A stretch of 44,698 nt of DNA from Shigella phage 1b, in sequence record OR420686; one strand, given 5' to 3'. Positions 6,308-11,319 of this stretch are shown piece by piece. The position numbers and the translations under genes are program-made. Numbering within the stretch: the first letter of the stretch is position 1; each line of letters starts with the position of its first letter. The notes under the pieces are model-generated. The model worked only from the letters and a program-made list of their open reading frames with translations, did not search any database and was not told where the DNA came from.

Positions 6308-6598
6308 ATGGATAAGCTAAACGAGTGGTTATTCGCCCTTGCGTGCCTTGCTGGTGGCTTCGTAGGCGCACGCATTCATGGCGAGGCAACGAAAGGGCCG
6401 CTAAACTTCGTTTTATACATCGTGGTTGGCTTCCTGTGTGCCATATTTGGTGCGCCAGCTATCGCCGAGTGGGCGGGCTTATCGGGCGAGCGCACTGTCG
6501 CCGGTTTGGGCTTCGTAACTGCTATCTTCTGGATGCCAATAGCCGCCCGGATCAGGGAGACTATTGAGTCGTTCCGACTTCCGGGGGGCGCAAAATGA
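6308..6598 (+). CDS. putative holin (96 aa, multiple transmembrane segments)
   Basis: Hydrophobic helices, charged C-terminus, directly upstream of the endolysin gene. Confidence 0.5.
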   Translation: MDKLNEWLFALACLAGGFVGARIHGEATKGPLNFVLYIVVGFLCAIFGAPAIAEWAGLSGERTVAGLGFVTAIFWMPIAARIRETIESFRLPGGAK

Positions 6599-6840
6599 TT
6601 ATCACCGTCCTGTTGTTTGTTATCATAGGGGCTTCGTCCCTGTTTAACGTGTATGCGCCGTCCGTCCAGGATGGCATTTTAGGCCGGGTGTTATATCTGC
6701 TAACGGCGATGATCTGCGTTGTCGGATTGTTGCAAACAGGAGACGTATCTGACACCACCTGGACCGCGTTAATCTGGCTGTTTGCATTGCGCACGCTGCG
6801 TAATGCTGTTTTGAATGGGGTAAAACATGCGATTCAGTGA
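6595..6840 (+). CDS. membrane protein (81 aa), holin or antiholin-like
   Basis: Three hydrophobic segments; overlaps both the putative holin and the endolysin gene. Confidence 0.45.
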   Translation: MIITVLLFVIIGASSLFNVYAPSVQDGILGRVLYLLTAMICVVGLLQTGDVSDTTWTALIWLFALRTLRNAVLNGVKHAIQ

Positions 6841-7318
6841 CAACGGTCTACGATTTACGGCAGCATGGGAGCAATTCAGCCCAGTGCCGTATTTCGCGAC
6901 TAAGAAAGAGCAGGCCCGCGGCCTGTACACCTGGGGTTATGGTCACACCGGCACTAATCCGCCGCGGAGCATTACCCGAGCGGAAGCGCTGGAGCTACTT
7001 AAGCGAGATGTGGCATATGCCGAAAACTGGGTAAACAAGTACGCACACCCGAGCATCAATCAGGCGCAATTCGACGCGCTGGTGGACCTGGTCATCAATG
7101 CTGGCCCGGGTCCGATCATGCCGGACAACATTGCCAACGACTTTGACGATGCGGTGCGACTGGGTGACTGGGCGAAGGTCCGTGCTACTCTGCCGCAGTT
7201 CCGCAAGCAAGGCGGGGAAGTGCTGAAGGGTCTTGTACGCCGTGCAATCGGCAGACAGGCGTTGTTTGACGGTAAGCAGTGGGACGTTGCCGAGCGAATC
7301 GGGCGTAACGCGGCATAA
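6827..7318 (+). CDS. endolysin, T4/P22-type lysozyme (glycoside hydrolase family 24-like)
   Basis: WEQF...GLYTWGYGHTG and NQAQFDALVDLVINAG match phage lysozyme motifs (compare P22 gp19 IGVGHTG, NQNQYDAL). Confidence 0.8.
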   Translation: MRFSDNGLRFTAAWEQFSPVPYFATKKEQARGLYTWGYGHTGTNPPRSITRAEALELLKRDVAYAENWVNKYAHPSINQAQFDALVDLVINAGPGPIMPDNIANDFDDAVRLGDWAKVRATLPQFRKQGGEVLKGLVRRAIGRQALFDGKQWDVAERIGRNAA

Positions 7319-7334
7319 TACGAGGTAACACAGT

Positions 7335-7502
7335 ATGTTAAAAAGCATTCTTGATCATAACGCTGACGCGCTCGCCGCGCTGGCTAAAACCGAAGACCCT
7401 GGCGCACGCGCTATCATCGCGGACACTATCAGCCATGCAGGCGTCTTTGACGCGAAGCTGCCGAGTCCGCCACCGCCGGAAGAACCCGGCCCCGCAGCGT
7501 AA
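7335..7502 (+). CDS. small hypothetical protein (55 aa, Pro-rich C-terminus); below the track length cutoff
   Basis: ATG with GAGG RBS directly after the endolysin gene; a terminator follows. Confidence 0.3.
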   Translation: MLKSILDHNADALAALAKTEDPGARAIIADTISHAGVFDAKLPSPPPPEEPGPAA

Positions 7503-7509
7503 ACAATCA

Positions 7510-7534
7510 AGCCCGGAATTATCCGGGCTTTTTA
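7510..7534 (+). terminator. rho-independent terminator
   Basis: gcccggaattatccgggc hairpin followed by TTTTT. Confidence 0.6.
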
Positions 7535-7538
7535 TTGC

Positions 7539-7568
7539 TTGACTTGCAACCAACACAGGGGCCATACT
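7539..7568 (+). promoter_or_regulatory. sigma70-like promoter (TTGACT, 17-18 nt spacer, CATACT) flanked by two TGCAACCAA motifs
   Basis: Read directly; about 30 nt upstream of a GAGGAG RBS. Confidence 0.4.
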
Positions 7569-7597: not shown

Positions 7598-7687
7598 ATG
7601 GCACGTAAAGATGTTTGGGTATTGGCAATCTGGACCACCGCGGCTTTTATCGGCATGGTTATTTGTGAGGTGATGTATGGCTTTTAA
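7598..7687 (+). CDS. small hydrophobic peptide (29 aa); below the track cutoff
   Basis: ATG with GAGGAG RBS at ideal spacing; encodes MARKDVWVLAIWTTAAFIGMVICEVMYGF. Confidence 0.35.
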   Translation: MARKDVWVLAIWTTAAFIGMVICEVMYGF

Positions 7688-7850
7688 ACCGCAGCGTGAT
7701 TCCCGCCCTATGGCGGACAGACCGAAGGATATCCAGATGGAGGCGTCATTCATCCAGGGGCTATCATTCCTCACTAAAAAAGAGCAGGGGAAAGTAATGG
7801 GTGAGTTCCGCCGCGTATTGGCGGAATTCAAGCAGCAAGACGCAGAATAG
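7677..7850 (+). CDS. small hypothetical protein (57 aa); below the track cutoff
   Basis: Start overlaps the preceding peptide gene; GAGGTGA RBS. Confidence 0.3.
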   Translation: MAFKPQRDSRPMADRPKDIQMEASFIQGLSFLTKKEQGKVMGEFRRVLAEFKQQDAE

Positions 7851-7914
7851 TGCCTCGCCGCCATACGGACCGTGATATATTGTCCACGGTCCACTAATCA
7901 GGAATTAATTAAAT

Positions 7915-9057
7915 ATGCACCCGCAAACTAAAATTACCGATGAGCAATTGATCGCCGAGTTGCAATCCGGCACTACCTCGAAAGATATTGCGAAGAAATA
8001 CGGGATTGCCCTACGCAATGTTTATATGCGGAAAGCCCGCCTATCGAAAAAAGGCATTGGACACGGCAACGATGCCGTAATCCGCAAGCGCGTTGCCGAT
8101 GGCTTTGGGGTTAAGCGCGTATCGGCCCTGGTGCGCGGCAATGGCGAAGAGGTCATGTCGTGGGTCATCACGGAGCAGGACAAAGAGCGCCAACTCGAAG
8201 CCATGCGCGCTGTTGTCGAGGGTATGAACAGCGAAATCACACCGGCAGCGCCAGTAAAAGCCCCGCCAGTACCGATCCAGGCGCTCGACTTGCTCAACCT
8301 GTACACCGTATCCGACTTCCACCTGGGCATGTTGGCATGGGGCGAGGAGACTGGCGAAGACTGGGATATGGCGATCGCCGAAGACCTGTTTTACCGCTGG
8401 TTTGTTGAAGCCTTCGCCCGCGCACCGGACGCAGGCACTGCCGTAATTAATATCCTCGGTGATATGGCCCACTTTGATAGCCTCGATGCTGTCACTCCGG
8501 CAAGTGGTCACATACTGGACGCTGACACCCGCTACCAGAAACTGGTCCGATACATGATTCGCATGGTGCGCAACGTCGTCGAACTGGCGCTGCAAAAACA
8601 CCACAAAGTCAAACTGCTAATCGTCCAGGGGAATCATGACGAGTCTGGCATGATTTGGCTGGCTGAAATGTTCAATACGCTGTACGAGAACGAGCCGCGC
8701 GTTGATGTGGACACGTCCCCGGACGTATACAAAATGGTGCAACACGGCAAGACCACGCTATTCTTCCACCACGGGCACAAAGCGCGCTTCGATGCTATCG
8801 AAACCGTCATGATTTCTAAATTCAGACAGGCTTTCGGATCCAGCGAGTACAGCTACGCGCATGTAGGCCACTTGCACCACCAGAAGATTGTAGAATCCCG
8901 CAACATGATTGTTGAACAGCACCGGACCCTCGCCGCGAAAGACGCATATGCCAGCCGCGGCGGTTGGATGTCCGGTCGTAGTGCCAACGTCATCACCTAC
9001 AGCGCCAATTACGGCGAAGTGGCGCGCTTAACCATTAGCCCGGAAATGTTGAAATGA
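7915..9057 (+). CDS. calcineurin-like metallophosphoesterase with N-terminal HTH domain (380 aa)
   Basis: Metallophosphatase motifs DFHLG, GDMAHFD, GNHD, HHGH, GHLHH in canonical order; N-terminal HTH-like TSKDIAKKYGIALRNVYMRKARL. Confidence 0.75.
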   Translation: MHPQTKITDEQLIAELQSGTTSKDIAKKYGIALRNVYMRKARLSKKGIGHGNDAVIRKRVADGFGVKRVSALVRGNGEEVMSWVITEQDKERQLEAMRAVVEGMNSEITPAAPVKAPPVPIQALDLLNLYTVSDFHLGMLAWGEETGEDWDMAIAEDLFYRWFVEAFARAPDAGTAVINILGDMAHFDSLDAVTPASGHILDADTRYQKLVRYMIRMVRNVVELALQKHHKVKLLIVQGNHDESGMIWLAEMFNTLYENEPRVDVDTSPDVYKMVQHGKTTLFFHHGHKARFDAIETVMISKFRQAFGSSEYSYAHVGHLHHQKIVESRNMIVEQHRTLAAKDAYASRGGWMSGRSANVITYSANYGEVARLTISPEMLK

Positions 9058-9266
9058 TTAGACAAGTATTCATGAGCACGCAGGCCGCACGCCTGAAAGA
9101 ACTACGCAAACAACTGGAAGGATTGCGCCGATTCGAACGAACGGCAGCGGCAATAGGCATGTCTATCAGTGAGCGGATCGAGATACTATCTCAAATACGC
9201 TACACAGAAGGCGCCATACGCGAAGTAGAAAGCATGTTAACCCGATACTACGGTCGCGCCGTTTAA
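9054..9266 (+). CDS. hypothetical protein (70 aa)
   Basis: ATGA overlap with the upstream gene; terminator downstream. Confidence 0.45.
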   Translation: MIRQVFMSTQAARLKELRKQLEGLRRFERTAAAIGMSISERIEILSQIRYTEGAIREVESMLTRYYGRAV

Positions 9267-9272
9267 CCCTCC

Positions 9273-9300
9273 CAGCCCGCCGATTTGGTGGGCTTTTTTG
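9273..9300 (+). terminator. rho-independent terminator
   Basis: cagcccgcc / ggtgggc hairpin followed by TTTTTT. Confidence 0.5.
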
Positions 9301-9361: not shown

Positions 9362-9934
9362 ATGCACAAAAGGGCTTATATCATGGCAGAAATCAAAGTT
9401 AAGGGCCGACGCGCCAAACTGGACGGACGAGTAGCGGTGACTCCGCGCCGTAAACCAGGCGAGCAAACCGAACATACCAATCTCGGACCTGAGATCGAGT
9501 ACGGCAAGCGCCGTAAAGGCGGTAAATGTGGACGCCCGACCGACTACCGCACTGTGTATTGTGACCAGCTTCGTCGCTATTTCGCCGATGCCGTAGCCTG
9601 GCAGATCAACTACTCTGACAAGGGGGCCGCGCAGGTAATACCCCGCAACAAAATGCCAACCTTCGGTCGATTTGCCGCGGAAATCGGTGTGGGCGTAGCT
9701 TGCCTGTATCGCTGGGCGCGCGCACATGAGGAGTTCGCCGAGGCGATGGCGGACGCAATGGAGTTGCAGAAAACTTTCCTGATGGAAGCTGGCGGAGTGA
9801 CCATCGCTGCGGGCTTCGCGACCTTCCTGCTTAAAGCCAACCACGGCGTACGCGACGATACCCCACTGGATGACGACGAAGATGATAACGGCGACGTCGT
9901 TGTCGAACCTACCGGCAAAGGCCAGGGCGAATAA
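9362..9934 (+). CDS. terminase small subunit
   Basis: Immediately upstream of the large terminase; HTH-like PTFGRFAAEIGVGVACLYRWA; acidic C-terminus; start ambiguous between 9362 and the ATG at 9383. Confidence 0.6.
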   Translation: MHKRAYIMAEIKVKGRRAKLDGRVAVTPRRKPGEQTEHTNLGPEIEYGKRRKGGKCGRPTDYRTVYCDQLRRYFADAVAWQINYSDKGAAQVIPRNKMPTFGRFAAEIGVGVACLYRWARAHEEFAEAMADAMELQKTFLMEAGGVTIAAGFATFLLKANHGVRDDTPLDDDEDDNGDVVVEPTGKGQGE

Positions 9935-11319
9935 TGCGTAATTATGCGGCAGAACACCGCGCACTGGAGCGCACGATCGCAAAGCGCAACCGACCACCAC
10001 GCCCGACACGCGTTGCGCAGGCCGTCCGCCTGTACCAGCCTGATTGCCTTCCGCACCAGGTCGAACTACTGCGGGACACTAAGACTAAAATCCTCGGCCT
10101 GTGCTCCGGCTTCGGGGGAGGAAAGTCGTGGGTCGCTGCGCGTAAGGTAATCCAGCTTCTGACACTTAACCCCGGTCATGATGGCATCGTTACAGAACCG
10201 ACTATTCCTCTCCTGGTCAAGATCATGTACCCGGAATTGGAAAAGGCTTTCGACGAGGCTGGCTTCCGGTGGAAGTTCAATAAGCAGGACAAGATCTACA
10301 ACGTGCTGGTGAAAGGGAAATGGACCCGCGTTATCTGTGAATCAATGGAGAACTATACCCGCCTGATCGGGGTCAACGCCGCGTGGATTGTTGCCGATGA
10401 GTTCGACACCACGAAACAAGACGTCGCGCTGGCGGCATATCACAAATTGCTCGGTCGTCTGCGTGCGGGCTTCGTCCGCCAGTTCGTCATCGTGTCCACC
10501 CCGGAAGGCTACCGGGCGATGTACCAGATTTTCGAAGTGGAGAAGGATAGCCAGAAACGCTTGATCCGGGCGAAGACCACGGACAACCACCATTTACCGG
10601 CAGACTTTATTGACACGCTGCGCAGTCAGTACCCGGCTAACCTGATTGATGCGTACCTGAACGGCCTGTTTGTTAACCTTACGTCGGGCGCGGTGTACAA
10701 GATGTTTAACCGTGAGGAGAACGCCAGCACCGAAGAAGTGCAGCCGGAAGACACGCTGATTATCGGCATGGACTTTAACGTCACGAAGATGGCGGCGGTC
10801 GTGTACGTCAGACGGCAGCGCGTCACGGAGAACAAGGAGTTCCGCGACGAGATTCACGCCGTGGATGAATTTGTGGACCTGTTTGACACCCCAGCTATGA
10901 TTGAGGCGATCGAGGAGCGCTACCCCGATCATTGTGCTGCCGGTCGTGTTGTCGTTTACCCGGATAGCAGCGGCAAATCCCGCAAGACGGTCAACGCGTC
11001 GTCGTCCGATATCGCACAACTGGAAGATGCGGGCTTCGAGGTGGAGTATGACAGTGTTAACCCGCCTGTGAAAGACCGATTGATCGCGATGAATACGATG
11101 ATGTGTAACTCGAAGGGCGTGCGCCAGTATTTTGTCAACCTGGATAAATGCCCTACACTAGCGAAATGTCTGGAACAGCAGGTGTACGACCTGAAGAAAG
11201 GCGAACCGGATAAAACTGCCGGTGTGGACCACATGAACGATGCCGCGGGCTACCCAATTGCGCACCTGTTCCCTGTGATTCGTCCAATCGCCGTTGTTCC
11301 TACCGTAGATTTCTACTAA
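9934..11319 (+). CDS. terminase large subunit (ATPase plus nuclease)
   Basis: Walker A GLCSGFGGGKS, Walker B WIVADEFD, C-terminal nuclease-like region (IIGMDFN ... YPDSSG). Confidence 0.85.
   Translation: MRNYAAEHRALERTIAKRNRPPRPTRVAQAVRLYQPDCLPHQVELLRDTKTKILGLCSGFGGGKSWVAARKVIQLLTLNPGHDGIVTEPTIPLLVKIMYPELEKAFDEAGFRWKFNKQDKIYNVLVKGKWTRVICESMENYTRLIGVNAAWIVADEFDTTKQDVALAAYHKLLGRLRAGFVRQFVIVSTPEGYRAMYQIFEVEKDSQKRLIRAKTTDNHHLPADFIDTLRSQYPANLIDAYLNGLFVNLTSGAVYKMFNREENASTEEVQPEDTLIIGMDFNVTKMAAVVYVRRQRVTENKEFRDEIHAVDEFVDLFDTPAMIEAIEERYPDHCAAGRVVVYPDSSGKSRKTVNASSSDIAQLEDAGFEVEYDSVNPPVKDRLIAMNTMMCNSKGVRQYFVNLDKCPTLAKCLEQQVYDLKKGEPDKTAGVDHMNDAAGYPIAHLFPVIRPIAVVPTVDFY

What the first reader, a model, noticed from the sequence alone, without database searches (positions are those of the whole stretch)
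7915..9057. HTH domain fused to a calcineurin-like metallophosphoesterase
All five metallophosphatase motifs are present (DxH, GD, GNHD, H, GHxH) behind an N-terminal HTH-like segment. The gene sits between the lysis genes and the terminase genes, preceded by a hairpin. The fusion could be a DNA-targeted nuclease or phosphatase (SbcD/Mre11-like GNHD rather than the GNHE of protein phosphatases) or a regulator with enzymatic activity; it could also be packaging-associated given its neighbours.
Basis: partly seen in the sequence, partly recalled or inferred. Interest (0 to 1): 0.45.

Follow-up and report, generated by a model that had tools for sequence, protein, structure and literature searches.

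The report
HTH-tethered Mre11-like phage nuclease gene
This is an intact gene of a Dhillonvirus-type E. coli phage encoding a DNA-binding helix-turn-helix fused to a two-metal phosphoesterase most like the Mre11/SbcD/T4-gp47 nucleases; the family is common and already catalogued in phages, but nobody seems to have tested what it does.

Summary
ORF 7915-9057 (+, 380 aa) carries all five metallophosphoesterase motifs, and their metal ligands are invariant across 77 homologs of 32-80% identity. Its N-terminus is a confident three-helix HTH of the LuxR/NarL/resolvase type.

The protein is not new. It is 99.7% identical to an annotated phage protein, matches PHROG 704 ("DNA repair exonuclease") end to end (E 4.8e-161), and belongs to a family of about 4,650 clusters at 50% identity. 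About 94% of full-length representatives carry the same HTH fusion.

Adjacency to terminase is specific to Dhillonviruses (2 of 23 lineages), so a packaging role is not supported. The upstream "hairpin" is not significant; its conserved core looks like an extended -10 promoter.

Best reading: a partner-less, HTH-tethered DNA nuclease of phage DNA metabolism. This is inferred, not demonstrated. It is an ordinary member of a known but uncharacterised family.

The parts
7509..7530 (+). Terminator-like GC-rich hairpin followed by a T-run. It closes the lysis cassette and marks the upstream boundary of the small unit that holds the gene.
   Evidence: 9-bp stem, 6 GC pairs, tail TTTATTGCTT; conserved in slur05 and L010
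7539..7568 (+). Sigma-70-like promoter match, TTGACT-18-CATACT
   Evidence: 9 of 12 matches; the region's count is not above the shuffle expectation, so this is weak; sequence conserved in slur05 and L010
7598..7687 (+). Small conserved hydrophobic ORF (MARKDVWVLAIWTTAAFIGMVICEVMYGF), first ORF of the unit
   Evidence: conserved in slur05 and L010; function unknown
7867..7892 (+). Not statistically distinguishable from shuffled sequence and only partly conserved.
   Evidence: z = -1.27
7873..7881 (+). Conserved TGnTATATT, an extended -10-like promoter element 33 nt upstream of the ATG. Promoter function is inferred.
   Evidence: CCGTG(A/G)TATATTG is the conserved core in all five aligned relatives. 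Reading it as an extended -10 rests on established knowledge of the TGnTATAAT consensus.
7915..9057 (+). CDS, 380 aa: the HTH-metallophosphoesterase fusion (PHROG 704)
7915..8064 (+). aa 1-50: basic (pI 10.1) three-helix HTH of LuxR/NarL/resolvase type
8095..8235 (+). aa 61-107: family-specific beta-hairpin (64-73 and 79-88; conserved G77 and W83) plus a long helix (90-105/107). No specific structural match. It is retained even in the HTH-less Campylobacter phage homolog.
8275..9054 (+). aa 121-380: binuclear metallophosphoesterase domain with motifs I-V plus family-specific blocks (T194-P195...L201-D202...R206 and T338...G350...R355). There is no capping domain.
9054..9266 (+). 70-aa ORF whose ATG overlaps the stop codon of the gene (ATGA). 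PHROG 20931, unknown function, found only in Dhillonviruses, so it is not a conserved partner of the family.
9274..9294 (+). Terminator-like hairpin plus T-run separating this unit from terS and terL
   Evidence: 9-bp stem, 6 GC pairs, tail TTTTTGTGCC

Best explanation
The gene encodes a stand-alone, metal-dependent (probably Mn2+/Mg2+) phosphodiesterase of the Mre11/SbcD/T4-gp47/PolD-DP1 nuclease branch of the calcineurin-like superfamily. The active site has the full set of two-metal ligands: D134, H136, D183, N240, H286, H319 and H321, with H241 as the catalytic histidine of motif III.

It has no Rad50/SbcC/gp46-type ATPase to hold it on DNA. Instead it carries its own nucleic-acid handle: a basic LuxR/NarL-type HTH joined through a beta-hairpin, a helix and a flexible linker.

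The most likely job is exo- or endonucleolytic processing of DNA during phage DNA metabolism. That could mean trimming ends or branches of replicating and recombining concatemers, degrading host DNA to nucleotides, or both. These are the two roles known for T4 gp46/47.

Shown here: the intact catalytic motifs, the fold, the HTH, how widespread and constant the fusion is, the absence of a partner ATPase, and the variable synteny. Inferred: that the substrate is DNA, that the enzyme is a nuclease, that the HTH binds DNA, and the biological role.
For: - Motifs I-V are invariant across 77 homologs and across phage genera down to 27% identity.
- The model is confident (pLDDT 93.5).
- hhalign of the family profile against T4 gp47 gives E 2.3e-5 over 186 columns. 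The alignment covers DxHLG, GD, GNHD, GH and GHxH and a shared extra block, TLAAxDAYAxRGGW against TLTAGDENDPRGFW. Against a gp47 family alignment it gives E 5.7e-5.
- Motif II is GDxxH and motif I is DxHLG, as in Mre11/SbcD (sequence; the Mre11 consensus is from my own knowledge).
- The HTH is supported and has pI 10.1. The fusion is present in 132 of 141 full-length representatives.
- Neighbours in other phages are DNA and nucleotide-metabolism genes: endonuclease VII, 5'-3' exonuclease, a split PNKP and ATP-dependent ligase in Erwinia phage S2; ligase and a Holliday-junction resolvase in a Campylobacter phage; dCMP deaminase and thymidylate synthase in a Ruegeria phage; Dam methylase in a T1-like phage.
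- PHROG 704 is annotated "DNA repair exonuclease".
Against: - No biochemical or genetic study of any family member was found.
- The hhalign probability against gp47 is only 66-76%, and E. coli SbcD aligns over just 15 columns.
- Pfam Metallophos and Metallophos_2 matches are below their gathering scores. There is no match to the SbcD/Mre11 NCBIfam models or to Pfam SbcD_C or Mre11_DNA_bind.
- There is no capping domain and no Rad50-like partner, both of which matter for substrate handling in true Mre11 enzymes.
- In three lineages the gene sits next to lysis genes (late region), which says nothing specific about DNA metabolism.
Confidence: 0.55

Rival explanations
1. End-healing enzyme. The metallophosphoesterase acts as a 2',3'-cyclic phosphodiesterase or 3'-phosphatase on broken RNA or DNA ends, working with polynucleotide kinase and ligase to repair damage from host nucleases (for example tRNA anticodon nucleases). 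Precedents are the metallophosphoesterase module of bacterial Pnkp and some mycobacteriophage Pnkp enzymes.
For: - In 4-5 of 23 lineages the gene is immediately followed by a HAD_PNKP phosphatase-domain protein (Pfam 55.9 bits against a 27.6 cut-off) and a P-loop kinase-like protein. An ATP-dependent DNA ligase is nearby in 3 lineages.
- A metallophosphoesterase domain in an RNA-repair Pnkp is established (PMC3675462, found).
Against: - Those same loci already encode a dedicated HAD-type 3'-phosphatase, which would make a second phosphatase redundant.
- The window phage and most lineages have no PNK next to the gene.
- The best matches are nucleases.
Confidence: 0.15
2. Anti-defence phosphodiesterase. 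The enzyme degrades a nucleotide second messenger (cyclic mono-, di- or oligonucleotides) made by host immune systems, like class III cyclic-nucleotide phosphodiesterases of the same superfamily.
For: - The gene lies in accessory, indel-rich regions in several phages.
- The family is very widespread across unrelated phage genera.
Against: - A conserved DNA-binding-type HTH (94% of representatives) has no obvious role in hydrolysing a small molecule.
- Nucleases outrank phosphodiesterases in both fold searches.
- There is sequence-level similarity to gp47.
- There are no PADLOC or defence-related matches, and no literature link was found.
Confidence: 0.1
3. Transcription regulator. The HTH is the functional part, binding phage or host promoters or RNA polymerase as a sigma region 4 mimic. 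The enzyme domain would be a sensor or have a secondary role.
For: - Some GenBank records already call the protein "transcriptional regulator" or "HTH luxR-type domain-containing protein".
Against: - All catalytic residues are invariant across the family, so the enzyme is under strong selection.
- The HTH is the least conserved part: 21-59% identity against 29-86% for the catalytic domain. It is missing altogether in the Campylobacter phage members.
- The HTH-less members keep the catalytic core, so the enzyme is the essential module.
Confidence: 0.08
4. Packaging accessory. The protein helps terminase by recognising or cutting pac DNA, as its position just upstream of terS/terL suggests.
For: - Adjacent to terS/terL in Dhillonviruses.
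Against: - Terminase is a neighbour in only 2 of 23 lineages.
- Elsewhere the gene sits by Dam methylase and holin (T1-like phage), inside the tail-gene block next to an HNH endonuclease (Jerseyvirus), or among replication and repair genes.
- A terminator-like site separates it from terS.
- The phage has its own terS and terL.
Confidence: 0.04

Closest known systems
PHROG 704 ("DNA repair exonuclease"), i.e. GenBank phage proteins annotated as calcineurin-like phosphoesterase, putative phosphoesterase or HTH luxR-type domain protein (e.g. Escherichia phage BMA1, slur05 gp35, YD-2008.s ORF43)
   Same: - Full-length profile match, aa 5-380 on profile positions 2-390, E 4.8e-161.
- 95-99.7% identity to many Dhillonvirus proteins.
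- Same length, same synteny and same fusion.
   Different: Nothing of substance; the window protein is an ordinary member. The family name is a homology-based label, and no experiment behind it was found.
T4 gp47 (the SbcD/Mre11-like nuclease subunit of the gp46/gp47 recombination and host-DNA-degradation nuclease)
   Same: - Motifs I-V align over 186 columns (E 2.3e-5).
- An extra C-terminal block is shared, TLxAxD...RGxW.
- Both are phage-encoded.
   Different: - No gp46 (Rad50/SbcC-like) partner in the window or in a close relative. The listed gp46 homologs are all in phages of roughly 100 kb or more.
- No C-terminal capping or partner-binding region; only about 60 residues follow motif V.
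- It has an N-terminal HTH plus beta-hairpin/helix module that gp47 lacks.
- It has an insert between motifs II and III (T194...R206) that gp47 lacks.
Mre11 / SbcD nucleases and the PolD DP1 proofreading exonuclease (cellular)
   Same: - GNHD motif III and the DxHLG / GDxxH forms of motifs I and II.
   Different: - 12-18% identity. E. coli SbcD aligns to the profile over only 15 columns.
- No capping domain, no SMC-type ATPase partner, and no match to the SbcD or Mre11 NCBIfam or Pfam accessory-domain models.
Partner-less bacterial metallophosphoesterase nuclease MPE/PdeM (P. putida, PDB 6nvo; ligase-associated DNA damage response)
   Same: It works alone as a metallophosphoesterase DNA endonuclease and is linked to ligase and repair genes, which is a functional analogy for a partner-less nuclease.
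LuxR/GerE-NarL-type and resolvase-type HTH domains (sigma-70 region 4 clan)
   Same: - Three-helix HTH superposes at rmsd 1.2-1.7 A over 42-44 residues.
- A homolog passes the Pfam GerE and Sigma70_r4_2 cut-offs.
- The profile's best PDB sequence match is GerE (E 0.036).
   Different: - The HTH is N-terminal and fused to an enzyme rather than to a receiver or ligand-binding domain.
- There is no fourth (dimerisation) helix in the model.
- The window protein's own sequence match is below threshold.

Membership tests
Calcineurin-like binuclear metallophosphoesterase superfamily | Five motifs: DxH, GD, GNH[DE], H, GHxH, with their metal-ligand residues | tested here: met
   D134/H136, G182-D183, G239-N240-H241-D242, H286 and G318-H319-x-H321 are present. 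Ten of these positions are invariant in 77 homologs.
Calcineurin-like binuclear metallophosphoesterase superfamily | Alpha/beta sandwich metallophosphoesterase fold | tested here: met
   [not shown]
Calcineurin-like binuclear metallophosphoesterase superfamily | Pfam Metallophos (PF00149) or Metallophos_2 (PF12850) above the gathering score | tested here: not met
   20.1 bits against 21.5, and 22.4 bits against 27. One close relative carries a precomputed PF12850 hit (P0118). This is a divergent branch; membership of the superfamily rests on the motifs and the fold.
PHROG 704 | Full-length match to the family profile | tested here: met
   E 4.8e-161, aa 5-380 on profile positions 2-390 of 390
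Mre11 / SbcD / gp47 nucleases | Nuclease-type metallophosphoesterase core as nearest structural and sequence relatives | tested here: met
   [not shown]
Mre11 / SbcD / gp47 nucleases | C-terminal capping (DNA-specificity) domain after the phosphoesterase domain | tested here: not met
   Only about 60 residues follow motif V, and they form the closing strands of the sandwich. No Pfam SbcD_C or Mre11_DNA_bind match at E <= 1.
Mre11 / SbcD / gp47 nucleases | Rad50/SbcC/gp46 SMC-like ATPase partner encoded with it | tested here: not met
   tblastn of gp46 against the window finds nothing (best E 3.2). The 58 genes of the close relative slur05 include none. None appears among the recurrent neighbour clusters annotated from the 85 analysed loci.
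Mre11 / SbcD / gp47 nucleases | Match to the curated SbcD or Mre11 family models (NCBIfam) | tested here: not met
   No SbcD or Mre11 model among NCBIfam matches at E <= 1
Mre11 / SbcD / gp47 nucleases | Mn2+-dependent exo/endonuclease activity on DNA | not testable with these tools
   Needs biochemistry
PPP Ser/Thr protein phosphatases (lambda phosphatase, calcineurin, PP1) | Signatures GDxHG, GDxVDRG and GNHE | tested here: not met
   [not shown]
LuxR/GerE-type HTH | Three-helix HTH fold with helix 2-turn-helix 3 | tested here: met
   [not shown]
LuxR/GerE-type HTH | Pfam GerE (PF00196) above the gathering score | tested here: inconclusive
   The window protein scores 14.8 bits against 23.5. 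One homolog's N-terminus scores GerE 36.1 and Sigma70_r4_2 40.6, both above cut-off, while two others are below.
LuxR/GerE-type HTH | Sequence-specific DNA binding | not testable with these tools
   Needs EMSA or footprinting. The only indirect support is pI 10.1 for aa 1-50.
Terminase-associated / packaging proteins | Conserved linkage to terS/terL across the family | tested here: not met
   TerL is within five genes in only 2 of 23 lineages. Contexts differ in T1-like, Jerseyvirus, Vibrio, Erwinia, Ruegeria and Campylobacter phages.

The most novel reading that the evidence does not exclude
The family could be a distinct solution to the Mre11 problem. A gp47-like nuclease core has lost the Rad50-type ATPase clamp and the capping domain and is instead directed to DNA by a covalently attached, fast-evolving and recombinationally swappable HTH. 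That would make it a sequence- or structure-targeted nuclease. It might selectively destroy host DNA, or remove hairpins and free ends from phage DNA that would otherwise trigger end- or palindrome-sensing host defences such as RecBCD or Lamassu-type systems. Nothing here tests the targeting or the anti-defence part.
Probability: 0.15. Interest if true: 0.6.

Novelty: new member of a known kind. Interest (0 to 1): 0.27.

Why it matters
The gene itself is routine. It is a near-identical copy of a protein annotated in hundreds of coliphage genomes.

The family's reach is the notable part. It has thousands of clusters and appears in more than 2,000 phage records across Dhillonvirus, Kagunavirus, Jerseyvirus, T1-like Drexlerviridae, Autographiviridae, N4-like and Campylobacter phages. 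It is labelled "DNA repair exonuclease" purely by homology, and no experiment was found.

If the inferred activity is right, many small therapeutic-type siphophages carry a minimal, partner-less Mre11-like nuclease. That bears on how they process DNA and host chromosomes, including transduction risk. It would also give a compact model for how an Mre11-type active site works without Rad50.

Tried and rejected
- **PDB sequence search with the single protein.** The top hits were designed armadillo-repeat proteins (4rv1, E 2.9e-6). I rejected them as a repeat-summing artefact: each of the nine stretches has an individual E-value above 100 and covers only aa 67-101.
- **NCBIfam.** Only negligible matches (PdeM E 0.084, UhpA E 0.12).
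- **PADLOC.** No match.
- **The search for related loci with the broad alignments A2 and A1.** Both failed for lack of a conserved 7-10 column stretch. A six-sequence alignment (A3) worked.
- **Partner hunt.** The 70-aa ORF that overlaps the stop codon occurs only in Dhillonviruses, and no +1 gene is conserved across lineages. No gp46/SbcC-like gene was found. could not settle whether Campylobacter phages pair their HTH-less homolog with a gp46.
- **Hairpin as terminator or operator.** Rejected.
- **Literature.** Eight searches and four papers opened. They yielded only genome-annotation mentions (e.g. PMC5893235, ORF43 "putative phosphoesterase") and no functional data.
- **Profile comparison with E. 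coli SbcD and lambda phosphatase.** Essentially negative, so the family cannot be filed as an SbcD orthologue or as a PPP phosphatase.
Full report
**What the window is.** The 5 kb around the finding is 91-92% identical in DNA to many Escherichia Dhillonvirus genomes (AV129, PC2, Sponge, slur05). The local gene order is holins and endolysin (6308-7318), a 55-aa ORF (7335-7502), the gene in question (7915-9057), a 70-aa ORF (9054-9266), terS (9362-9934), terL (9934-11319) and portal.

**Checking the observation.** ORF 7915-9057 on the + strand encodes 380 aa.
- In an alignment of 77 homologs at 32-80% identity to the window protein, the invariant columns are D134, H136, G182, D183, T194, N240, H241, H286, G318 and H321.
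- These columns also hold across phage genera down to 27% identity.
- The active site is therefore intact and under strong selection, not a chance motif match.
- An AlphaFold2 model built on that alignment is confident (mean pLDDT 93.5, pTM 0.79). It shows three N-terminal helices (9-17, 22-29, 33-45), a beta-hairpin (64-73 and 79-88), a long helix (90-105), a less confident linker, and an alpha/beta sandwich domain (121-380).

**The HTH.**
- The window protein's own Pfam GerE match is below threshold (14.8 bits against 23.5).
- A homolog's N-terminus passes the curated cut-offs of Sigma70_r4_2 (40.6 bits) and GerE (36.1 bits). The family profile's best PDB sequence match is GerE itself (E 0.036).
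- The segment is strongly basic (pI 10.1 for aa 1-50, against 6.0 for the catalytic domain).
- The beta-hairpin and helix (61-107, with conserved G77 and W83) have no specific structural relative.

**The hairpin.** An 8-bp perfect stem exists at 7867-7892, but it folds no better than shuffled sequence (z = -1.27; 23 of 200 shuffles do as well).
- It lacks a T-run and was not called by the terminator scan.
- Its 3' arm varies without compensation in relatives.
- What is conserved in all five aligned relatives is CCGTG(A/G)TATATTG. I read this as an extended -10 promoter element (TGnTATATT, 7873-7881), 33 nt before the ATG. That reading is an inference from the known consensus.
- Terminator-like hairpins with T-runs at 7509-7530 and 9274-9294 bracket a small unit. 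The unit holds a tiny hydrophobic ORF, a window-specific insertion, this gene and the 70-aa ORF.

**It is a known, very large family.**
- The protein matches PHROG 704 ("DNA repair exonuclease") end to end at E 4.8e-161.
- tblastn finds it in 2,062 phage records. These include Dhillonvirus (95-99.7%), Kagunavirus (73-80%), Jerseyvirus (about 49%), Erwinia Autographiviridae (48%), T1-like Drexlerviridae and Klebsiella relatives (43-47%), Vibrio (33%), N4-like Ruegeria (27%) and Campylobacter Fletchervirus (29%).
- GenBank labels include "calcineurin-like phosphoesterase", "DNA repair exonuclease", "putative phosphoesterase", "transcriptional regulator", "HTH luxR-type domain-containing protein" and "winged helix-turn-helix domain-containing protein".
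- An exhaustive search of 1.84 billion representatives gives 4,658 clusters at E <= 1e-3 and 1,135 at E <= 1e-30. Most are 370-420 aa.
- Of 141 full-length representatives among the best 150, 132 score for the HTH module and 130 for the hairpin/helix module. The fusion is the family's standard architecture, not an oddity of this phage.
- The Campylobacter phage members lack the HTH but keep the hairpin/helix and the catalytic core.

**Which kind of metallophosphoesterase.**
- Non-nuclease enzymes follow closely: LpxH 13.8, MJ0936 13.4, YfcE 12.8, Rv0805 12.2.
- PPP phosphatases are distant (PP5 9.1), and the partner-less nuclease MPE of P. putida scores 9.3.
- Foldseek agrees: Mre11 E 1e-8, Rv0805 4.9e-8, DP1 9e-8.
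- At sequence-profile level, the family aligns with T4 gp47 over 186 columns covering all five motifs, plus a further shared block (TLAAxDAYAxRGGW against TLTAGDENDPRGFW), at E 2.3e-5. Against an alignment of T4-like gp47 proteins it gives E 5.7e-5.
- E. coli SbcD aligns only around GNHD (15 columns, E 0.015). Lambda Ser/Thr phosphatase does not align meaningfully.
- The PPP signatures GDxHG, GDxVDRG and GNHE are absent. The sequence has SDFHLG, GDMAHFD and GNHDES.
The margin over other phosphodiesterases is modest and the hhalign probability is only 66-76%.

**Why it is not a member of Mre11/SbcD proper.**
- No capping domain: only about 60 residues follow motif V, and they close the sandwich.
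- No Pfam SbcD_C or Mre11_DNA_bind match and no NCBIfam SbcD or Mre11 match.
- No Rad50/SbcC/gp46-type ATPase. None is present in the window (tblastn best E 3.2), in the 58 annotated genes of slur05, or among the recurrent neighbour clusters of the 85 loci analysed.
- The listed gp46 homologs occur in large phages of roughly 100 kb or more.
- The family also has its own conserved insert between motifs II and III (H186, D188, T194, P195, L201, D202, R206), which gp47 lacks.

**Genomic context across the family.** I took 80 IMG/VR loci plus six GenBank loci, called ORFs, and clustered the neighbours. One locus had no usable ORF call, which left 85 loci. They form 23 lineages at 65% identity.

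| Neighbour | Lineages (of 23) | Note |
|---|---|---|
| HAD_PNKP phosphatase-domain protein | 4 | at +1, 12 loci |
| P-loop dNMP/nucleotide-kinase-like protein | 5 | at +2 |
| HNH endonuclease | 4 | at +1 |
| Endolysin | 3 | |
| Anti-repressor Ant | 3 | |
| 5'-3' exonuclease | 3 | |
| ATP-dependent DNA ligase | 3 | |
| Helicase | 3 | |
| TerL | 2 | within five genes |

- No neighbour is universal.
- Individual examples:
  - Erwinia phage S2: 5'-3' exonuclease, endonuclease VII, this gene, PNK, kinase, ligase.
  - Campylobacter phage: ligase, this gene.
  - T1-like Sfin-3: Dam methylase ... this gene ... holin, endolysin.
  - Jerseyvirus: an island with HNH and Ant inside the tail genes.
- The packaging idea is therefore not supported. 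The recurring theme is DNA and nucleotide metabolism, with frequent placement near lysis genes.
- The 70-aa ORF that overlaps the stop codon (ATGA at 9054-9057) is confined to Dhillonviruses.

**Most likely mechanism.** This is a two-metal phosphodiesterase of the gp47/Mre11 nuclease lineage that acts on DNA without an ATPase partner. A basic LuxR-type HTH on a flexible tether brings it to its substrate. Its role would be end or branch processing of replicating and recombining phage DNA, breakdown of host DNA, or both, which are the two known roles of T4 gp46/47 (as the T4 record itself notes). I put this at about 0.55. The active site, fold, HTH, fusion, lack of partner and context are shown. 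The substrate, the nuclease chemistry, the DNA binding and the biological role are inferred.

**Rivals.**
- End-healing phosphatase or cyclic phosphodiesterase working with PNK and ligase (0.15).
- Hydrolase of a small-molecule signal, acting as anti-defence (0.10).
- Primarily a transcription factor (0.08).
- Packaging accessory (0.04).

**Novelty.** The sequence, the family and even the HTH annotation are already in public databases. No functional study turned up in eight full-text searches or in the four papers opened. I file it as a new member of a known kind, meaning an uncharacterised, partner-less, HTH-bearing branch of Mre11-like phage nucleases. Interest is low to moderate.

Noticed in passing
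window 7683-7853 (ORF 7677-7850, +): An insertion of about 170 bp relative to slur05, L009 and L010, sitting between the small hydrophobic ORF and the gene. It carries a 57-aa ORF (MAFKPQRDSRPMADRPKDIQ...) with no PHROG or Pfam match. L010 has a different insertion slightly upstream, so this intergenic stretch is a hotspot for small-ORF indels.
   Followed up: partly
window 7598-7687 (+): A 29-aa hydrophobic ORF (MARKDVWVLAIWTTAAFIGMVICEVMYGF). It comes directly after a terminator (7509-7530) and a promoter-like site (7539-7568), has a strong Shine-Dalgarno-like GAGAGGAG upstream, and is conserved in slur05 and L010. It may be a small membrane peptide; its function is unknown.
   Followed up: partly
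A1 alignment: P0005 (Salmonella phage SGPC), L003:4989-6140 (Jerseyvirus KE17), P0119 (Raoultella phage RP180): The N-terminal modules look shuffled between genera. P0005 shares aa 1-46 (the HTH) identically with the Jerseyvirus protein, yet its catalytic domain is 86% identical to the window protein against 50% for the Jerseyvirus one. The Jerseyvirus hairpin/helix segment instead matches RP180. This suggests recombination at the domain boundaries.
   Followed up: partly
L007:5175-6367 (Erwinia phage S2) and 12 IMG/VR loci: Downstream of the homolog lies what looks like a split polynucleotide kinase-phosphatase: a HAD_PNKP phosphatase-domain protein (Pfam 55.9 bits), then a separate P-loop kinase-like protein (PHROG 139). 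In S2 an ATP-dependent DNA ligase follows. Together these form an end-healing and sealing module.
   Followed up: partly
L003:6159-6659, L004:6010-6519 and two other lineages: An HNH endonuclease (PHROG 99) sits immediately downstream of the homolog in 4 of 23 lineages. It is probably a mobile homing endonuclease using this conserved gene as a landing site.
   Followed up: no
window 9054-9266 (+): A 70-aa ORF whose ATG overlaps the TGA of the phosphoesterase gene (ATGA), which suggests translational coupling. It matches PHROG 20931 (unknown function) and was found only in Dhillonviruses.
   Followed up: partly
GenBank records: OQ221563.1 and PQ843332.1: "Acinetobacter phage NJ01" is 91% identical in DNA to E. 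coli Dhillonviruses, so its host label looks doubtful. "Escherichia phage P-GXEC-L2P5" is 88.6 kb with three matching places, about twice the usual genome length, so it may be a concatenated or duplicated assembly.
   Followed up: no
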